Positions 5,196-9,363 of a DNA stretch of 17,593 nt are shown one piece after another. Position numbers and translations under genes: made by a program. Below the pieces are notes generated by a model. That model was not told the DNA's origin. It worked only from the letters and a program-made list of their open reading frames with translations, and ran no database searches. Source of the stretch: a virus; UHGV virus genome UHGV-1834291; one strand, given 5' to 3'. The number at the start of each line of letters is the position of its first letter. Position 1 is the stretch's first letter.

Positions 5196-6572
5196 TCATA
5201 CGTCAGCCCCTTGTGCATATCGTCTGCCACGTGCAGCAGGTGCATTTGATGTTGTGCAAATCTGTCTGGCTTCATCCTGGTCACATGCAACAAAGTGTCC
5301 GTTGCAGAACCGCTGGTAAACCGTACCAAGCGAGCCAAAACGGTTTTTCGTTACGATGATTTCAGCAAATGGCGCGGCGCTACTGTTCTCGTCATATACC
5401 GCTTCCCGATAGAGCATGATGATTGAGTCTGCGTCCTGTTCAATGCTTCCTGAATCACGCAAATCTGCGTTTGTCGGGCGTTTGTTTGGTCGCTTCTCAA
5501 CATCGCGCGAAAGCTGACTCAGGGAGATAACGGGCGTTTTCAGGTCTTTCGCCATCGCCTTCAGGCTTCCGGAGATGTGAGCAATTGCGAGGTCGTTGCG
5601 GTCTGCTTTCGGCTTCTCAATCAGGCCAAGATAATCCACCATGATGAGTGAGAGGTTTGGATTTTCCTGTTTGTGCCGTTCTGCGATTGAGCGTATTTCT
5701 TCGACCGATAACCGCGAGGCATCGACTACCCATACATCCAAATCTGCAAGCTGACTCATGCCGTTAGCAACGCGCGCCCAGCCTTCGTCATCCATCGCTG
5801 CAGGATTTCGCAGCACACTAACCGACATCCTCCCGGCGTTGGCAATGCTTCGCTCTGCAATCTGCAATGCGCTCATTTCCATTGAGAAAATCAATACCCC
5901 GCGCCGGACGTCAGAACCAGGAATAACGCGGCTTGCAACGCCTTCGGCAATCTTCAGCGCCAGTTCGGTTTTCCCCATACCAGGACGAGCAGCGATTATC
6001 ACCAGGTCTTCCGCGTTCATCCCTCCGGTGATGGCATCAAGTTCTTCGATTCCGGTCTTCAGGGTATCGGACTCTTCTCCGTTCCTCAGACGCCTGTCAA
6101 GCGTGTCAGTGTAGTCAGTAATGATTTCCCCTAACCGTACAGGTTTAACCTCGTCACGGGGCTTTCTGATGGCTGAAAGACGCTTTACAAGCTCATCCAT
6201 CGCCTGACTCGATGCGTCGATGGTTCCGCTCTGAATTGGTTCACGCATTTCATCCATGATTTCCAGCACCAGACGGCGGTGATAGTTATCCGCGACCATT
6301 CCGGCATATCCCTTCAGGTTTGCGGCACTAGGGCAGTTTTTGCTGGTCATCAGGATTGACGTGAAATGCTCCTCTCCGCACGCCTCGGCAACCATCAGCG
6401 CGTCGATTAGGTTTCTGTTTCGCGCCTGCTTGCGGATAACCTCGAAGGCTTTCCGGTAGAGCGGAATTGAAAACGCTTCCGGCTCAAGCGTTGCCAGAAC
6501 GTCACTGGCAGTTGGTGTTAATCCACCAATCAGCAGGCCACCGATAACGCTCGCTTCGATATCCTGTCTCAT
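5196..6572 (-). CDS. Replicative DNA helicase, DnaB family (P22 gene 12-like)
   Basis: 458 aa; Walker [13 protein letters not shown]; DnaB-like N-terminal domain; start ATG overlaps O-like stop (ATGA). Confidence 0.9.
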
Positions 6573-7390
6573 GCAATCCCCCTGTCTGCAAACTTCCCTT
6601 CCCGTACTCCCGTTAACGAATCTTCCCTCAACAGGTAATCAAAATCAGCTGTCCAGCCCGTGTCGTTGTCTCCGAAGTAAAACGGCTTGGCCTGATGCAC
6701 AAACGCCCTGACATACGCTCTGAAACCGTCCACGTTTGGCGTTTTCAGTTGCGGGATGATTTTCTTCAGGCGGCGTTTGCGTTTCTCGTTGACCGCAACA
6801 GCGTGTGGCAGTCTGTCACCTACTTCGGTGTTGTAGGCGTTCAGGAAGGATTCGTAGTCGATTCGTTCTGCCTTGCGACGTTCAGGTTTAACCTGCCCAT
6901 CGCCGCCCCCGTTAGGGGGTAAGGGGGTATTTGTATTTATTGTCTTTTGTATATTGTCTTTTGTGTTTAGCTGACTTGGCTTATACCCATTAGCCGACTT
7001 GGCTAATGTTTTATTAGCTGTTTTAGCTAATGTTAAGCTGTCCTGGCTAATCCACTGAGAAACCACCTTGTTCACTCCGATTTTCACGCCATCAGCAATG
7101 AGGAATTTACGCTCAATAAGCTGGCGCTTGGCAGCGCAAACATGAGTGTGATGAATACCTGTCATGGCTGCTATCTGCGTGTTTGTGAGTCGATCCATCG
7201 GCTTATTGAATCCGTATGTCTTGCGCATGATAGCGAGCATCACCTTCAACTGCCGGACGGTTAAATCAGCCATCAGCAGACTGTCGGTAATCTCGTTAGC
7301 AACGCGCATGAAACCATCTTCGGTATCTGCCACGCGATGCTCCACGACCTCCAGTTGAGGCCTGTAATCAGCTAACTTAACGACGCCCAT
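6569..7390 (-). CDS. Replication initiation protein, lambda O-like N-terminal domain
   Basis: 273 aa; N-terminal segment [25 protein letters not shown] resembles the lambda O DNA-binding domain; iterons lie inside the gene as in lambda; RBS AGGAG upstream. Confidence 0.85.
6911..7051. repeat. Candidate replication origin: four ~18-bp iterons plus adjacent AT-rich tract inside the O-like gene
   Basis: Direct repeats tagctgacttggcttata (6968-6985), tagccgacttggctaatg (6991-7008), tagctgttttagctaatg (7015-7032), taagctgtcctggctaat (7034-7051); AT-rich tract 6927-6967; G-rich gggggtaagggggta at 6914-6929. Confidence 0.7.
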
Positions 7391-7538
7391 GCTTCACTCC
7401 TGCTTTGGCTAGTCTGTAAACACCAACAAGGCGCTCTGCGAACGCCCTGTTATTTGCTGCGGCTACCACTAATCCCTCAGGTGAATCAGGGTGTCGAATC
7501 TCTTCTTTTTCCTGGTATTTCTTACGACGTTTTGTCAT
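7377..7538 (-). CDS. Small basic ORF (53 aa) between cII and O-like gene; uncertain
   Basis: ATG 7536-7538 with strong RBS AGGAG 5 nt upstream; [53 protein letters not shown]; overlaps O start by 14 nt; may instead be promoter/leader region of the antisense RNA. Confidence 0.25.
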   Translation of the reverse strand: MTKRRKKYQEKEEIRHPDSPEGLVVAAANNRAFAERLVGVYRLAKAGVKHGRR

Positions 7539-7544
7539 AATTAC

Positions 7545-7615
7545 TCCTGTGGATTGATCCAGTCTTTCTACATCAGGCCTCGAAGAATTCGCCGTTCTTC
7601 GGGGCTTTTTCTTTT
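7545..7615 (+). ncRNA. Candidate OOP-like antisense RNA (antisense to cII 3' end); 5' end not defined
   Basis: Strong plus-strand terminator at 7577-7615 inside the cII 3' coding end, the arrangement of lambda OOP RNA; promoter not confidently located (possible TTGTCA at 7532-7537). Confidence 0.35.
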
Positions 7616-7851
7616 GTCAGCATTCTGGCTACTTTCTTAGCCAGTTCCGCCAACTCCTCGTCTTCAACACCCCATTCAAGAACAGCCAGAAGCATTCCCA
7701 TTTTGGGGATGAAGCTATCTTTCCATCGCGAAATTTGCGATTCATTAATCCCTAACGCGTCGGCAACCTTTCGCTGACCACGTACAGCAATTCGATTCAG
7801 GATGTTGCTTGTAATTGCATTCGCTTTCTTGCGAGTACTTGTAAGTTGCAT
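7573..7851 (-). CDS. cII: CII-like transcriptional activator
   Basis: Trimmed to ATG 7849-7851 (downstream of nutR): MQLTSTRKKANAITSNILNRIAVRGQRKVADALGINESQISRWKDSFIPKMGMLLAVLEWGVEDEE..., aligns with lambda CII including SQISRWK and MLLAVLEWGV. Confidence 0.85.
   Translation of the reverse strand: MQLTSTRKKANAITSNILNRIAVRGQRKVADALGINESQISRWKDSFIPKMGMLLAVLEWGVEDEELAELAKKVARMLTKEKAPKNGEFFEA
7577..7615 (+). terminator. Intrinsic terminator on the strand antisense to cII
   Basis: 11-bp stem gcctcgaagaa / ttcttcggggc (one G-U) with 7-nt loop 7588-7594, immediately followed by tttttctttt (7606-7615). Confidence 0.75.
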
Positions 7852-7909
7852 ATGTAAGTATTTCCTTAACAAATAAGAAGTTATGCGCATCAAATTATGC
7901 GCGTTGTAT

Positions 7910-7953
7910 TCCCGCATTTCGGCGGGAATGATGACCATGACTGTTAAAGAGCG
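7910..7953 (-). promoter_or_regulatory. nutR: boxA plus boxB hairpin
   Basis: Minus strand cgctctttaaca (boxA, plus 7942-7953) then 13 nt then tcccgccgaaatgcggga (boxB hairpin, plus 7910-7927); lies between cro stop and cII start. Confidence 0.8.
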
Positions 7954-7959
7954 GTGTTA

Positions 7960-8154
7960 CTATTTGTTTTTCTTGTTGCTTGGGAAAGGACGAACTTCCT
8001 CTCCAATCACACTGCCATCAGGCTTTACCGTAACCATGATGTTACGGCCTGCCAGAATGGCCTTGCTGATAGCGCACTGGATTACACCAAAGTCACTGGC
8101 TGCTTTAGCCTGTCCATGGATTTTGGCGTAATCGGCAAGTGTCATTCGAATCAT
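7960..8154 (-). CDS. cro: Cro repressor (lambda Cro-like)
   Basis: Start at ATG 8152-8154 with RBS GGAGA; [62 protein letters not shown] aligns with lambda Cro ([21 protein letters not shown]...FPSNKK). Confidence 0.85.
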
Positions 8155-8183
8155 ATGCACTCTCCGTTATTAACCATGAACAA

Positions 8184-8254
8184 AGAATACTACAGGTATT
8201 CAAAGCAATCAATACTCAGGGTATTTTTAGTTTAAGTACCTTAGCTATTAGAAT
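8184..8254. promoter_or_regulatory. Right operator region: OR1, OR2, OR3 with divergent PR and PRM
   Basis: 17-bp palindromic sites gaatactacaggtattc (8185-8201), caatactcagggtattt (8210-8226), weaker aagtaccttagctatta (8234-8250), centres 24-25 bp apart. PR (minus) TTGATT-17-TATTCT overlaps OR2/OR1; PRM (plus) weak -35 and TAGAAT -10 at 8249-8254, cI ATG at 8261 suggests a leaderless mRNA. Confidence 0.75.
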
Positions 8255-8260
8255 TAAGCT

Positions 8261-8977
8261 ATGGAAAATAAAAAATCACTGACGACAGAACAGCTCGAAG
8301 ACGCTAAGCGGCTTAAGGCTTTGTATGAGTCAAAAAAGAAAGAATTGGGAATAACCCAATACTCAATCGCTGATGAACTGGGTATCACCCAAGGAGCGGT
8401 AGGGCATTATCTTAATGGCAGAAACGCGCTAAACGTTGAGGTCGCATCTGGTTTTGCACGTTTGTTGCAAGTCTCAATTGCTGATTTTAGCCAGTCAATT
8501 GCTGCCAAGGTTGCAGAACAGGCAGAAAGCCTTAAGAGCGATGCCAACGTAAGGTATGCAGGGGAATACAGAGCAGGAAAGAGGTATCCGGTGTTAAGCA
8601 GTATCCAGGCTGGCTCGTGGTGTGAAGCATGCGAACCATACACCATTAAAGACATAGATGTTTGGCTTGAGTCTGACGCGCATATTCAAGGTAATGCGTT
8701 CTGGCTTAAAGTGGAAGGTGATTCAATGACGGCACCGGTTGGGTTAAGCATTCCAGAGGGAACATTCGTTCTTTTCGATACCGGAAGGGAGGCGATCAAC
8801 GGCAGCTTGGTCATAGCAAAACTTTCTGACTCTAACGAAGCAACATTCAAGAAGCTGATAATCGACGGCGGAAATAAATACCTCAAGGGACTTAATCCTG
8901 CATGGCCTCTCGTGCCAATCAATGGAAACTGCAAGATTATAGGCGTTGCAATTGAGACAAAACTAAGGCTGGTTTGA
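8261..8977 (+). CDS. cI: CI-type prophage repressor (HTH_XRE N-domain, S24 LexA-like autopeptidase C-domain)
   Basis: 238 aa; HTH ITQYSIADELGITQGAVGHYLNG; C-domain with catalytic Ser (GDSM) and Lys (FKKL) and an Ala-Gly candidate cleavage site; divergent from cro across the operator region. Confidence 0.9.
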   Translation: MENKKSLTTEQLEDAKRLKALYESKKKELGITQYSIADELGITQGAVGHYLNGRNALNVEVASGFARLLQVSIADFSQSIAAKVAEQAESLKSDANVRYAGEYRAGKRYPVLSSIQAGSWCEACEPYTIKDIDVWLESDAHIQGNAFWLKVEGDSMTAPVGLSIPEGTFVLFDTGREAINGSLVIAKLSDSNEATFKKLIIDGGNKYLKGLNPAWPLVPINGNCKIIGVAIETKLRLV

Positions 8978-8994
8978 TCACGCAAGGGGCGATT

Positions 8995-9363
8995 ATGGTT
9001 GGAACCGCTATAGCAAGCTTTTTTGGGATGTTGGCAATCTCGACAATTTACGGCTTAGCGCATGCTTTTATTGCGAAATCTCTATCAGAAAAAATAAGCC
9101 AGGCTTGGGCGCATAGATCAGCTCGTTTCATGATTCTGGTGATCATAGCAATACAAGGGATATCTGCATTTATCCTCTATGGATCAAGCTTATACCTATT
9201 GTATCAAGGCGCGACATTTACGCCTTACACCAGTGATTACGGAACTCTATACGATGGTAGTGAAGACATCACTGTGGCTTGGATCGTCTTTGGTTTATCT
9301 ATGGCCGTGTCTGTTGTAGCAGACATCATTAAGGTAATTCTCGTCTTAACCTTCGCTGACTAA
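8995..9363 (+). CDS. Small membrane protein (122 aa, three predicted TM helices) directly downstream of cI; function unknown
   Basis: ATG 8995 with RBS AAGGGG 6 nt upstream, 18 nt after cI stop; MVGTAIASFFGMLAISTIYGLAHAFIAK...; three long hydrophobic stretches; occupies the rexAB-equivalent slot between cI and OL. Confidence 0.6.
   Translation: MVGTAIASFFGMLAISTIYGLAHAFIAKSLSEKISQAWAHRSARFMILVIIAIQGISAFILYGSSLYLLYQGATFTPYTSDYGTLYDGSEDITVAWIVFGLSMAVSVVADIIKVILVLTFAD

What the first reader, a model, noticed from the sequence alone, without database searches (positions are those of the whole stretch)
7377..7615. OOP-like antisense RNA terminator inside the cII 3' end, with an enlarged cII-O spacer containing a 53-aa ORF
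A strong plus-strand terminator (11-bp stem, U-rich tail, 7577-7615) lies inside the last codons of cII on the opposite strand, the arrangement of lambda OOP antisense RNA, which down-regulates cII. The cII-to-O gap is ~180 bp, much larger than the lambda gap as I recall it, and holds a 53-aa basic ORF with a strong RBS. Either the ORF is real or this region is the promoter and leader of the antisense RNA.
Basis: partly seen in the sequence, partly recalled or inferred. Interest (0 to 1): 0.42.

Follow-up and report, generated by a model that had tools for sequence, protein, structure and literature searches.

The report
Known oop antisense RNA plus gp53-like gene
This is the ordinary, already described oop antisense-RNA unit of lambda/P22-type phages, which damps the lysogeny activator cII, sitting next to a small conserved phage gene of unknown function (the HK97 gp53 family).

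Summary
The window is a lambdoid early-right operon read backwards: cI, cro, cII, a 53-aa ORF, O, then a DnaB-like helicase gene.

**The antisense RNA.** On the + strand, a 33-bp block at 7531-7563 matches lambda's pO -10 and OOP 5' end at 30 of 33 bases. A 14-pair terminator (7575-7607) with a T tail (to 7615) follows, inside the last 14 codons of cII.
- P22's RefSeq record annotates "oop" promoter and terminator at the homologous place.
- A 63-nt P22 oop RNA seen by small-RNA sequencing shares its first 30 nt with window 7552-7581.
- Prophage BTP1 has an RNA-seq-detected OOP, and its terminator is identical to the window's.
- The stem is kept in 20 relatives despite sequence turnover, with 5 two-sided compensatory changes against P22.

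**The 53-aa ORF** (7377-7538, - strand) is a real gene.
- It matches phrog_1331 (HK97 gp53, Sf6 gp42, ES18 gp58).
- Homologues across Enterobacterales give a median dN/dS of 0.16.
- Its stop always overlaps the O start.
- Its start codon lies inside the pO -10.

Hayes et al. 2012 already describe this cII-oop-orf-O layout. The gp53 function and the strength of this weak-(-35) promoter remain open.

The parts
7573..7851 (-). cII (P22 c1-type lysogeny activator), 92 aa. Its last ~14 codons are encoded opposite the oop terminator.
   Evidence: Pfam Phage_CII E = 1.8e-42 over residues 1-91 and phrog_191 E = 2.1e-37. The homologous CDS is annotated in Sf6, ES18, HK620 and P22.
7531..7563 (+). Conserved 33-bp pO/oop block (the 'boundary sequence' bsq5 of Sf6/HK620): TTTGTCATAATTACTCCTGTGGATTGATCCAGT.
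   Evidence: 30 of 33 positions identical to lambda TTTGTCATAATGACTCCTGTTGATAGATCCAGT. Sf6 annotates the boundary sequence bsq5 in this cII-to-gene-42 interval. Hayes 2012 describes a 33-bp block of homology shared by lambdoid phages.
7533..7541 (+). Predicted pO -10 with TGn extension (TGT-CATAAT). CAT 7536-7538 is the complement of the ORF's ATG.
   Evidence: The same bases as lambda pO -10 and the P22 'oop promoter' feature. In 14 diverged relatives the second (A) and sixth (T) hexamer positions are invariant while the others vary.
7513..7518 (+). -35 position of pO (TGGTAT, 17-bp spacer). This is a weak match, 2 of 6 to TTGACA.
   Evidence: Read. P22 has TGGTCA and lambda TTGAGT at this position. 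The promoter scanner did not call the site at its 9-of-12 threshold.
7549..7615 (+). Predicted oop RNA, about 65-68 nt. The +1 at G7549 is placed by alignment to lambda OOP +1. The 3' end falls in the T tail.
   Evidence: The P22 63-nt oop RNA from small-RNA sequencing is identical over its first 30 nt to window 7552-7581. From the terminator through GTCAG the window is identical to BTP1, and the 5' part differs at 2 positions. OOP-BTP1 was detected by RNA-seq.
7548..7572 (+). 5' stem-loop of the predicted RNA.
   Evidence: MFE and centroid structure. A 5' hairpin is also predicted in most relatives.
7575..7615 (+). tO-like intrinsic terminator: 14-pair stem 7575-7607, then the T-rich tail 7608-7615.
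   Evidence: The stem is retained in 20 relatives with different sequences. Against P22 there are 5 two-sided compensatory changes, read. P22 annotates the homologous site as 'terminator: oop'.
7377..7538 (-). 53-aa basic protein gene of the HK97 gp53 / Sf6 gp42 / ES18 gp58 family (phrog_1331). Function unknown.
   Evidence: phrog_1331 E = 1.4e-37 over the full length. It is annotated in about 97 phage records. Intact homologues occur in 17 bacterial species genomes. Median dN/dS is 0.16 and variable states at codon positions 1/2/3 are 55/41/115.
7544..7548 (-). Shine-Dalgarno AGGAG of the 53-aa gene, directly abutting the predicted oop +1.
   Evidence: Sequence. Homologous to the SD of lambda O.
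6569..7390 (-). O-like replication initiator. Its ATG overlaps the end of the 53-aa gene by 14 nt (ATGGGCGTCGTTAA).
   Evidence: Pfam Phage_rep_O E = 5.8e-33 and phrog_345 E = 3.4e-105. The 14-nt overlap (17 nt in two loci) is kept in all 23 loci listed.

Best explanation
Window 7531-7615 (+) is the oop gene of a P22/HK97-type lambdoid phage. It comprises promoter pO, a short self-terminating RNA of about 67 nt, and the terminator tO.

The RNA is transcribed against the pR early-right transcript. It is fully complementary to that transcript across the last ~14 codons of cII and the 34-nt cII-to-next-gene spacer, and it ends one base short of the next gene's Shine-Dalgarno.

The mechanism is inferred from lambda. 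OOP pairs with cII mRNA, RNase III cleaves the duplex, and less CII is made, which pushes the decision towards lytic growth. Convergent pO transcription also tempers pR transcription into the replication origin.

Between oop and O lies a genuine small gene for a 53-aa basic protein of the HK97 gp53 family (phrog_1331). It belongs to the replication-side module and is probably translationally coupled to O through a 14-nt stop/start overlap. Its biochemical role is unknown. Its first codons double as the pO promoter: the ATG lies within the -10, and codons 7-9 lie at the -35.
For: SHOWN
- Gene order is cI-cro-cII-ORF53-O-helicase.
- The conserved block matches lambda pO/OOP 5' at 30 of 33 positions.
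- P22 RefSeq carries features 'promoter oop' and 'terminator oop' at the homologous site.
- In the six-phage alignment, the BTP1 terminator is identical to the window's and the P22 5' half is identical.
- The terminator scan gives 14 pairs, and the fold has z = -4.7.
- The stem plus T-run is kept in 20 relatives, with 5 two-sided compensations against P22.
- The -10 second (A) and sixth (T) hexamer positions are invariant across 14 diverged relatives.
- More distant homologues carry good -35 boxes at the same place (TTGAAT, TTGAGT, TTGAAA).
- The ORF is coding: phrog_1331 E = 1.4e-37, 22 distinct homologues, median dN/dS 0.16 with saturated dS, and a third-position excess of 55/41/115.
- The stop/start overlap with O is invariant.

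FROM THE LITERATURE
- A 63-nt P22 oop RNA was detected (PMC13397905).
- OOP-BTP1 was detected by RNA-seq (PMC7067206).
- OOP acts on cII mRNA through RNase III (Krinke & Wulff 1987, as cited).
- pO and pR interfere with each other (PMC3985674).
- The cII-oop-orf-O layout, including the HK97 162-nt ORF, is described in PMC3349717.

INFERRED: that this particular copy is transcribed and acts on cII.
Against: - The -35 of this copy is poor. TGGTAT matches 2 of 6, or CTGGTA matches 3 of 6 with an 18-bp spacer, and the consensus promoter scan called nothing here.
- The experimentally observed transcripts come from phages (P22, BTP1) whose -35 lies in a different downstream ORF (orf48, TGGTCA). Promoter activity in the gp53 context is therefore not directly shown.
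- No Rfam model exists to score membership. Lambda and P22 themselves also give no hit.
- Nothing is known about what the 53-aa protein does. It has no Pfam, NCBIfam or PDB relative. The AlphaFold model is only moderate, with pLDDT 68, a disordered basic N-terminus and two helices.
Confidence: 0.9

Rival explanations
1. The hairpin and T-run are real, but in this phage no functional antisense RNA is made. On this reading the promoter has decayed (weak -35) after the gp53-type ORF replaced the orf48/O-type sequence, and the terminator persists only as a relic or as an mRNA 3'-end or stability element.
For: The -35 matches 2-3 of 6, and the promoter scan found 0 sites in 6900-8400. Direct transcript evidence exists only for P22 and BTP1, which carry orf48 and TGGTCA at -35.
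Against: - The TGn-extended -10 is intact and identical to lambda's. Extended -10 promoters tolerate poor -35 boxes (established knowledge).
- The -10, the 5' hairpin and the terminator are maintained together with gp53-type ORFs across genera, with compensatory stem changes. A relic would not show this.
Confidence: 0.07
2. The 53-aa ORF is not a gene. On this reading the 182-bp interval is only non-coding promoter or leader DNA for the antisense RNA, or an untranslated spacer of the pR transcript.
For: The ORF is short, with no Pfam, NCBIfam or PDB relative. Lambda does without it.
Against: - All 22 distinct homologues from about 12 genera are intact at 52-55 aa.
- Median dN/dS is 0.16 with saturated dS, and variation is concentrated at third codon positions.
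- A strong SD is present, and the stop/start overlap with O is conserved.
- The predicted RNA starts downstream of the ORF's start codon, so the ORF body is not part of the RNA.
Confidence: 0.02
3. The hairpin's main role is on the other strand, as an attenuator or terminator of the pR transcript between cII and the replication genes, rather than as the terminator of a leftward RNA.
For: A perfect inverted repeat forms on both strands.
Against: On the - strand the stem is followed by GATGTAGAAAG, which is not a U-run, so it is not an intrinsic terminator in that direction. In every relative the T-run is on the oop strand only.
Confidence: 0.01

Closest known systems
Bacteriophage lambda OOP RNA (pO-oop-tO, 77 nt)
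   Same: - Same position and orientation: antisense, overlapping the 3' end of cII and starting just past the SD of the next gene.
- The 33-bp -10/5'-end block matches at 30 of 33 positions.
- The predicted architecture has two hairpins in both, with an intrinsic terminator inside the cII C-terminal codons.
   Different: - The terminator sequence is unrelated, and the cII overlap is shorter (43 nt against 55 nt).
- The RNA is about 10 nt shorter.
- The -35 lies in a small extra gene rather than in O, and it is weaker (TGGTAT against TTGAGT).
P22 oop (annotated in NC_002371.2; 63-nt RNA in PMC13397905) and OOP-BTP1 (PMC7067206)
   Same: - The same cII (c1) family.
- The 5' 30 nt are identical to the P22 RNA.
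- The terminator and T tail are identical to BTP1's.
   Different: - P22's terminator stem differs at 7 of 14 positions: 5 compensated on both sides, 1 changed on one side, 1 mismatch.
- P22 and BTP1 carry orf48 (phrog_1913) rather than the gp53-type ORF downstream, so the -35 region is different DNA.
HK97 gp53 / Sf6 gene 42 / ES18 gp58 small protein family (phrog_1331)
   Same: The protein is 100% identical to HK97 gp53 and Sf6 gp42. The position between oop and O is the same, and so is the 14-nt overlap with O.
   Different: Nothing of note. The window's copy is an ordinary member. The family has no assigned function.
P22 orf48 / HK620 hkaW / HK022 homologue (phrog_1913)
   Same: It occupies the same slot between oop and the O-like gene. 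Its start codon lies in the pO -10, and its end overlaps the replication gene's start.
   Different: There is no detectable sequence similarity to the 53-aa protein. The PHROG family is different, and its 'tail protein' label is probably a mis-annotation.

Membership tests
Lambdoid oop antisense RNA (pO-oop-tO) | Encoded antisense to the 3' end of a cII-type activator gene, between cII and the replication genes, and convergent with pR transcription. | tested here: met
   cII lies at 7573-7851 (-) (Pfam Phage_CII). The hairpin and tail lie at 7575-7615 (+). O lies at 6569-7390 (-).
Lambdoid oop antisense RNA (pO-oop-tO) | Carries the conserved ~33-bp block spanning the pO -10 and the OOP 5' end. 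| tested here: met
   30 of 33 positions identical to lambda. In the six-phage alignment A2 the block is nearly invariant. Described as a family hallmark in PMC3349717.
Lambdoid oop antisense RNA (pO-oop-tO) | A sigma-70 promoter correctly placed upstream of +1. | tested here: inconclusive
   The -10 CATAAT with a TG extension is present (7533-7541). The -35 matches only 2-3 of 6, and the scanner made no call. Activity could not be measured.
Lambdoid oop antisense RNA (pO-oop-tO) | A Rho-independent terminator giving a short (60-80 nt) self-terminated RNA. | tested here: met
   14-pair stem plus T tail, z = -4.7. The stem is conserved with covariation in 20 relatives.
Lambdoid oop antisense RNA (pO-oop-tO) | The transcript is actually produced. 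| not testable with these tools
   Shown only for near-identical sequences in P22 and BTP1.
Lambdoid oop antisense RNA (pO-oop-tO) | Lowers cII expression through RNase III cleavage of the OOP-mRNA duplex. | not testable with these tools
   Demonstrated for lambda (Krinke & Wulff 1987, cited). Inferred here from full complementarity.
HK97 gp53-like small protein (phrog_1331) | Full-length match to the family profile. | tested here: met
   E = 1.4e-37, residues 1-53 against profile positions 1-53. 100% identical to HK97 gp53 and Sf6 gp42.
HK97 gp53-like small protein (phrog_1331) | Protein-coding, with purifying selection. | tested here: met
   Median dN/dS 0.16 over 202 pairs. Variable states at codon positions 1/2/3 are 55/41/115.
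HK97 gp53-like small protein (phrog_1331) | Sits immediately upstream of an O-like gene and overlaps its start. | tested here: met
   A 14-nt overlap (17 nt in two loci) in all 23 loci listed.
Rfam RNA families | A covariance-model hit at or above the gathering score. | tested here: not met
   No hit in the window. This is uninformative, because lambda and P22 oop regions also give no hit, so Rfam evidently has no oop model. The weak E > 0.2 hits (ctRNA_p42d, sX13) are chance.

The most novel reading that the evidence does not exclude
The gp53-like 53-aa protein might not be a passive passenger. It could be a dedicated modulator at the junction of the lysis-lysogeny and replication modules. 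For example, a basic DNA- or RNA-binding helper could tune O-dependent initiation or pO/oop output. Its codons carry the pO -35, its ATG lies in the -10, and its stop is coupled to the O start. In that case translation of gp53, OOP synthesis and O synthesis would be mechanically linked. Nothing in the evidence excludes this, and the family has no experimental characterisation that I could find.
Probability: 0.15. Interest if true: 0.35.

Novelty: already known. Interest (0 to 1): 0.1.

Why it matters
It matters little beyond correct annotation. The oop unit is a textbook regulator of the lambda lysis-lysogeny decision. Its presence in P22/HK97-type phages, and the extra small ORF between oop and O, are already in GenBank annotations and in the literature.

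There are two modest open points. The first is what the widespread but uncharacterised 53-aa gp53 protein does. The second is whether the weak-(-35), extended -10 version of pO embedded in its coding sequence gives a different OOP level from lambda or P22.

Tried and rejected
- **Rfam** at the gathering score and at E <= 10 gave nothing meaningful. Controls with lambda and P22 also gave nothing, so Rfam cannot judge this RNA.
- **The sigma-70 scanner** called no promoter in 6900-8400. The pO-like site scores 7-8 of 12 and had to be identified by homology.
- **The IMG/VR scan** with the 53-aa protein returned 80 loci that were all 100% identical in protein. These were useless for a coding test. 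I used diverged phage records and a profile scan of species genomes instead.
- **MAFFT plus RNAalifold** on 14 terminator segments predicted no pairs, because a 1-nt register shift misaligned the 3' arms. I replaced this with a stem-anchored comparison in Python.
- **A covariance model** was considered but dropped, because the MAFFT alignment of diverged oop regions was not structurally consistent, and direct homology already settles membership.
- **Function of the 53-aa protein:**
  - It has no Pfam, NCBIfam or PDB-sequence hit.
  - An exhaustive profile search found only 24 clusters, all of small proteins.
  - The AlphaFold2 model reaches pLDDT 68 and shows a disordered N-terminus plus two helices. 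I did not send it to fold search, because a two-helix model of moderate confidence gives meaningless matches.
- **Literature searches** for 'HK97 gp53' and 'orf48' returned no functional study of either small protein. The 'orf48' of PMC12373910 is an unrelated numbering.

Full report
**What the window is.** The region around the finding is a lambdoid early-right operon read in reverse.
- cI repressor at 8261-8977 (+).
- cro at 7960-8160 (-).
- cII at 7573-7851 (-), 92 aa, Pfam Phage_CII E = 1.8e-42.
- A 53-aa ORF at 7377-7538 (-).
- An O-like initiator at 6569-7390 (-), Pfam Phage_rep_O E = 5.8e-33.
- A DnaB-like helicase at 5196-6572 (-).

The 651-bp query 7300-7950 matches 212 phage records, for example vB_EcoP-611R6 at 98% and Sf6, HK446, mEpX2 and HK544 at about 99%.

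**Checking the observation.** All four stated facts hold.
1. The + strand has a terminator-like site with a 14-pair stem at 7575-7607, a 5-nt loop and a TTTCTTTT tail to 7615. Window 7545-7618 folds at -27.9 kcal/mol, z = -4.7, and no shuffle out of 200 folds as well.
2. The cII stop codon is 7573-7575, so the hairpin and tail are encoded opposite the last ~14 cII codons.
3. The cII-to-O interval is 182 bp, against 32 bp in lambda.
4. The 53-aa ORF has an AGGAG 5 nt upstream of its ATG.

**Homology to oop.** Reading lambda's OOP strand against the window gives a 33-bp block:
- lambda: TTTGTCATAATGACTCCTGTTGATAGATCCAGT
- window 7531-7563: TTTGTCATAATTACTCCTGTGGATTGATCCAGT

They agree at 30 of 33 positions. 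In lambda this block holds the pO -10 (CATAAT with an upstream TG), the complement of the next gene's SD and ATG, and the first bases of OOP RNA. By alignment, the window's +1 is G7549.

The P22 RefSeq record carries the features 'promoter: oop; similar to phage lambda' and 'terminator: oop' at exactly the homologous place. A 2026 small-RNA-seq study reports a 63-nt P22 oop RNA (PMC13397905). Its first 30 nt are identical to window 7552-7581. Prophage BTP1 has an RNA-seq-supported OOP (PMC7067206). In alignment A2, BTP1's terminator and tail are identical to the window's, and its 5' part differs at 2 positions.

Rfam gives no hit. It gives none for lambda or P22 oop either, so that silence means nothing.

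**Comparative support for the RNA.** I collected diverged copies from ES18, Cronobacter phage ENT47670, Erwinia phage EhrS_49, Enterobacter phage ENT1 and 17 species genomes of Enterobacterales.
- All but one (L104, which has a different upstream gene) keep the same layout on the antisense strand. A -10 hexamer overlaps or abuts the downstream ORF's start codon, a 5' hairpin is predicted in most, and a terminator hairpin with a T-run follows.
- In a stem-anchored comparison, all 20 sequences have 8-16 uninterrupted or nearly uninterrupted pairs followed by a T-rich tail, although the stem sequences fall into about nine unrelated classes.
- The window and P22 stems differ at 7 of 14 positions. 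Five are compensated on both sides (G-C to A-T twice, A-T to C-G, A-T to T-A, T-G to G-C), one is changed on one side, and one is a mismatch (read).
- These changes alter the cII C-terminal tail from KAPKNGEFFEA to KPQDCGNSFEA. The RNA structure, not the peptide, is therefore the conserved feature.
- In an alignment of 14 diverged copies, the second (A) and sixth (T) positions of the -10 hexamer are invariant while the other hexamer positions vary. This is the pattern expected of a working sigma-70 -10 (established knowledge).

**The weak point.** With the 17-bp spacer used in P22 and lambda, the window's -35 is TGGTAT, which matches 2 of 6. P22 has TGGTCA and lambda TTGAGT. The consensus scanner called no promoter. 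The TG extension may compensate. More distant gp53-type loci do carry TTGAAT, TTGAGT or TTGAAA at the right spacing. Even so, pO activity in the E. coli/Salmonella gp53 context is not directly shown, because the sequenced transcripts come from phages carrying orf48.

**The 53-aa ORF is a gene.**
- It matches phrog_1331 over its full length at E = 1.4e-37.
- It is annotated as HK97 gp53, Sf6 gene 42 and ES18 gp58.
- It occurs in 97 phage records and in prophages of Edwardsiella, Trabulsiella, Yokenella, Enterobacter, Citrobacter, Chimaeribacter, Serratia, Rahnella, Brenneria and others.
- All copies examined are intact at 52-55 aa.
- Across 22 distinct sequences, median dN/dS is 0.16 with dS near saturation. 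Variable states at codon positions 1/2/3 are 55/41/115.
- Its stop overlaps the O start by 14 nt (17 nt in two loci) in every locus, which suggests translational coupling.

It has no Pfam, NCBIfam or PDB-sequence relative. An exhaustive profile search finds only 24 clusters of small proteins. AlphaFold2 gives a disordered basic N-terminus plus two helices at pLDDT 68. Its function remains unknown.

P22, BTP1 and HK620 carry an unrelated 48-aa ORF (orf48/hkaW, phrog_1913) in the same slot.

**How it most likely works.** This part is inferred from lambda.
- pO fires leftward and makes an RNA of about 67 nt. The RNA is perfectly complementary to the pR transcript from cII codon ~79 to one base before the SD of the 53-aa gene.
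- RNase III cuts the duplex and CII synthesis falls, which favours lytic growth (Krinke & Wulff 1987, cited).
- Convergent pO transcription also moderates pR transcription into ori (PMC3985674).
The ORF is real, and its first codons are also the promoter. The RNA body lies in the 34-nt spacer and the cII tail, not in the ORF.

**Novelty.** None. Hayes et al. 2012 (PMC3349717) describe three things:
- the 33-bp conserved pO/oop block across 23 lambdoid phages;
- the explicit point that lambda lacks the small ORF present in P22 (orf48) and HK97 (162 nt).

Sf6 annotates the boundary sequence bsq5 here. I rate this as already known, with interest 0.1. The only open questions are the function of gp53 and the strength of this pO variant.

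Noticed in passing
window 6969-7051 (inside the O gene): There are four ~16-nt iterons (AGCYGNCTTGGCTAAT-like) spaced 20-24 bp apart, next to an A+T-rich stretch (~6930-6965). This is the expected lambda-type replication origin inside O. The terminator-like site the scanner reported at 6988-7008 is part of these iterons, not a terminator.
   Followed up: partly
window 7576-7615 and relatives: The cII C-terminal tail co-varies with the oop terminator. Stem changes that keep base pairing rewrite the last ~11 residues (KAPKNGEFFEA in the window, KPQDCGNSFEA in P22, others elsewhere). The peptide tail seems free to change, while the antisense RNA hairpin is what is conserved.
   Followed up: partly
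window 7360-7390 and loci L086-L105: The 53-aa gene travels with the first ~10 codons of O ([10 protein letters not shown]). After these, O switches between at least two unrelated N-terminal types (…[13 protein letters not shown]… against …QEASSMGYVSIHRQF…). This looks like a second mosaic junction just inside O, so the small gene is flanked by recombination boundaries on both sides.
   Followed up: partly
loci L088 (Enterobacter phage ENT1), L094, L101: In some prophages the gp53-type gene and an oop-like -10/hairpin/T-run unit follow a different upstream gene rather than cII. In L094 that gene matches Pfam YdaT_toxin (E = 1.7e-27); the L088 and L101 upstream proteins look similar by eye but were not scanned. 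In L088 and L094 a 25-26-aa ORF (31 aa in L101) follows, and the antisense terminator lies over it. An oop-like antisense unit may therefore also serve YdaT-type switches.
   Followed up: partly
window 8974-9363 (+): A 129-aa predicted multi-pass membrane protein (phrog_6534, unknown function) starts at the cI stop codon, in the position lambda uses for rexA/rexB. It is a candidate prophage-expressed exclusion or defence gene.
   Followed up: no
locus L106 341-487 (P22 orf48) and HK620 hkaW: PHROGs and RefSeq label the 48-aa orf48/hkaW family (phrog_1913) as 'tail protein'. Its position is between oop and the replication initiator in the early operon, so the label looks like a propagated mis-annotation.
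   Followed up: no
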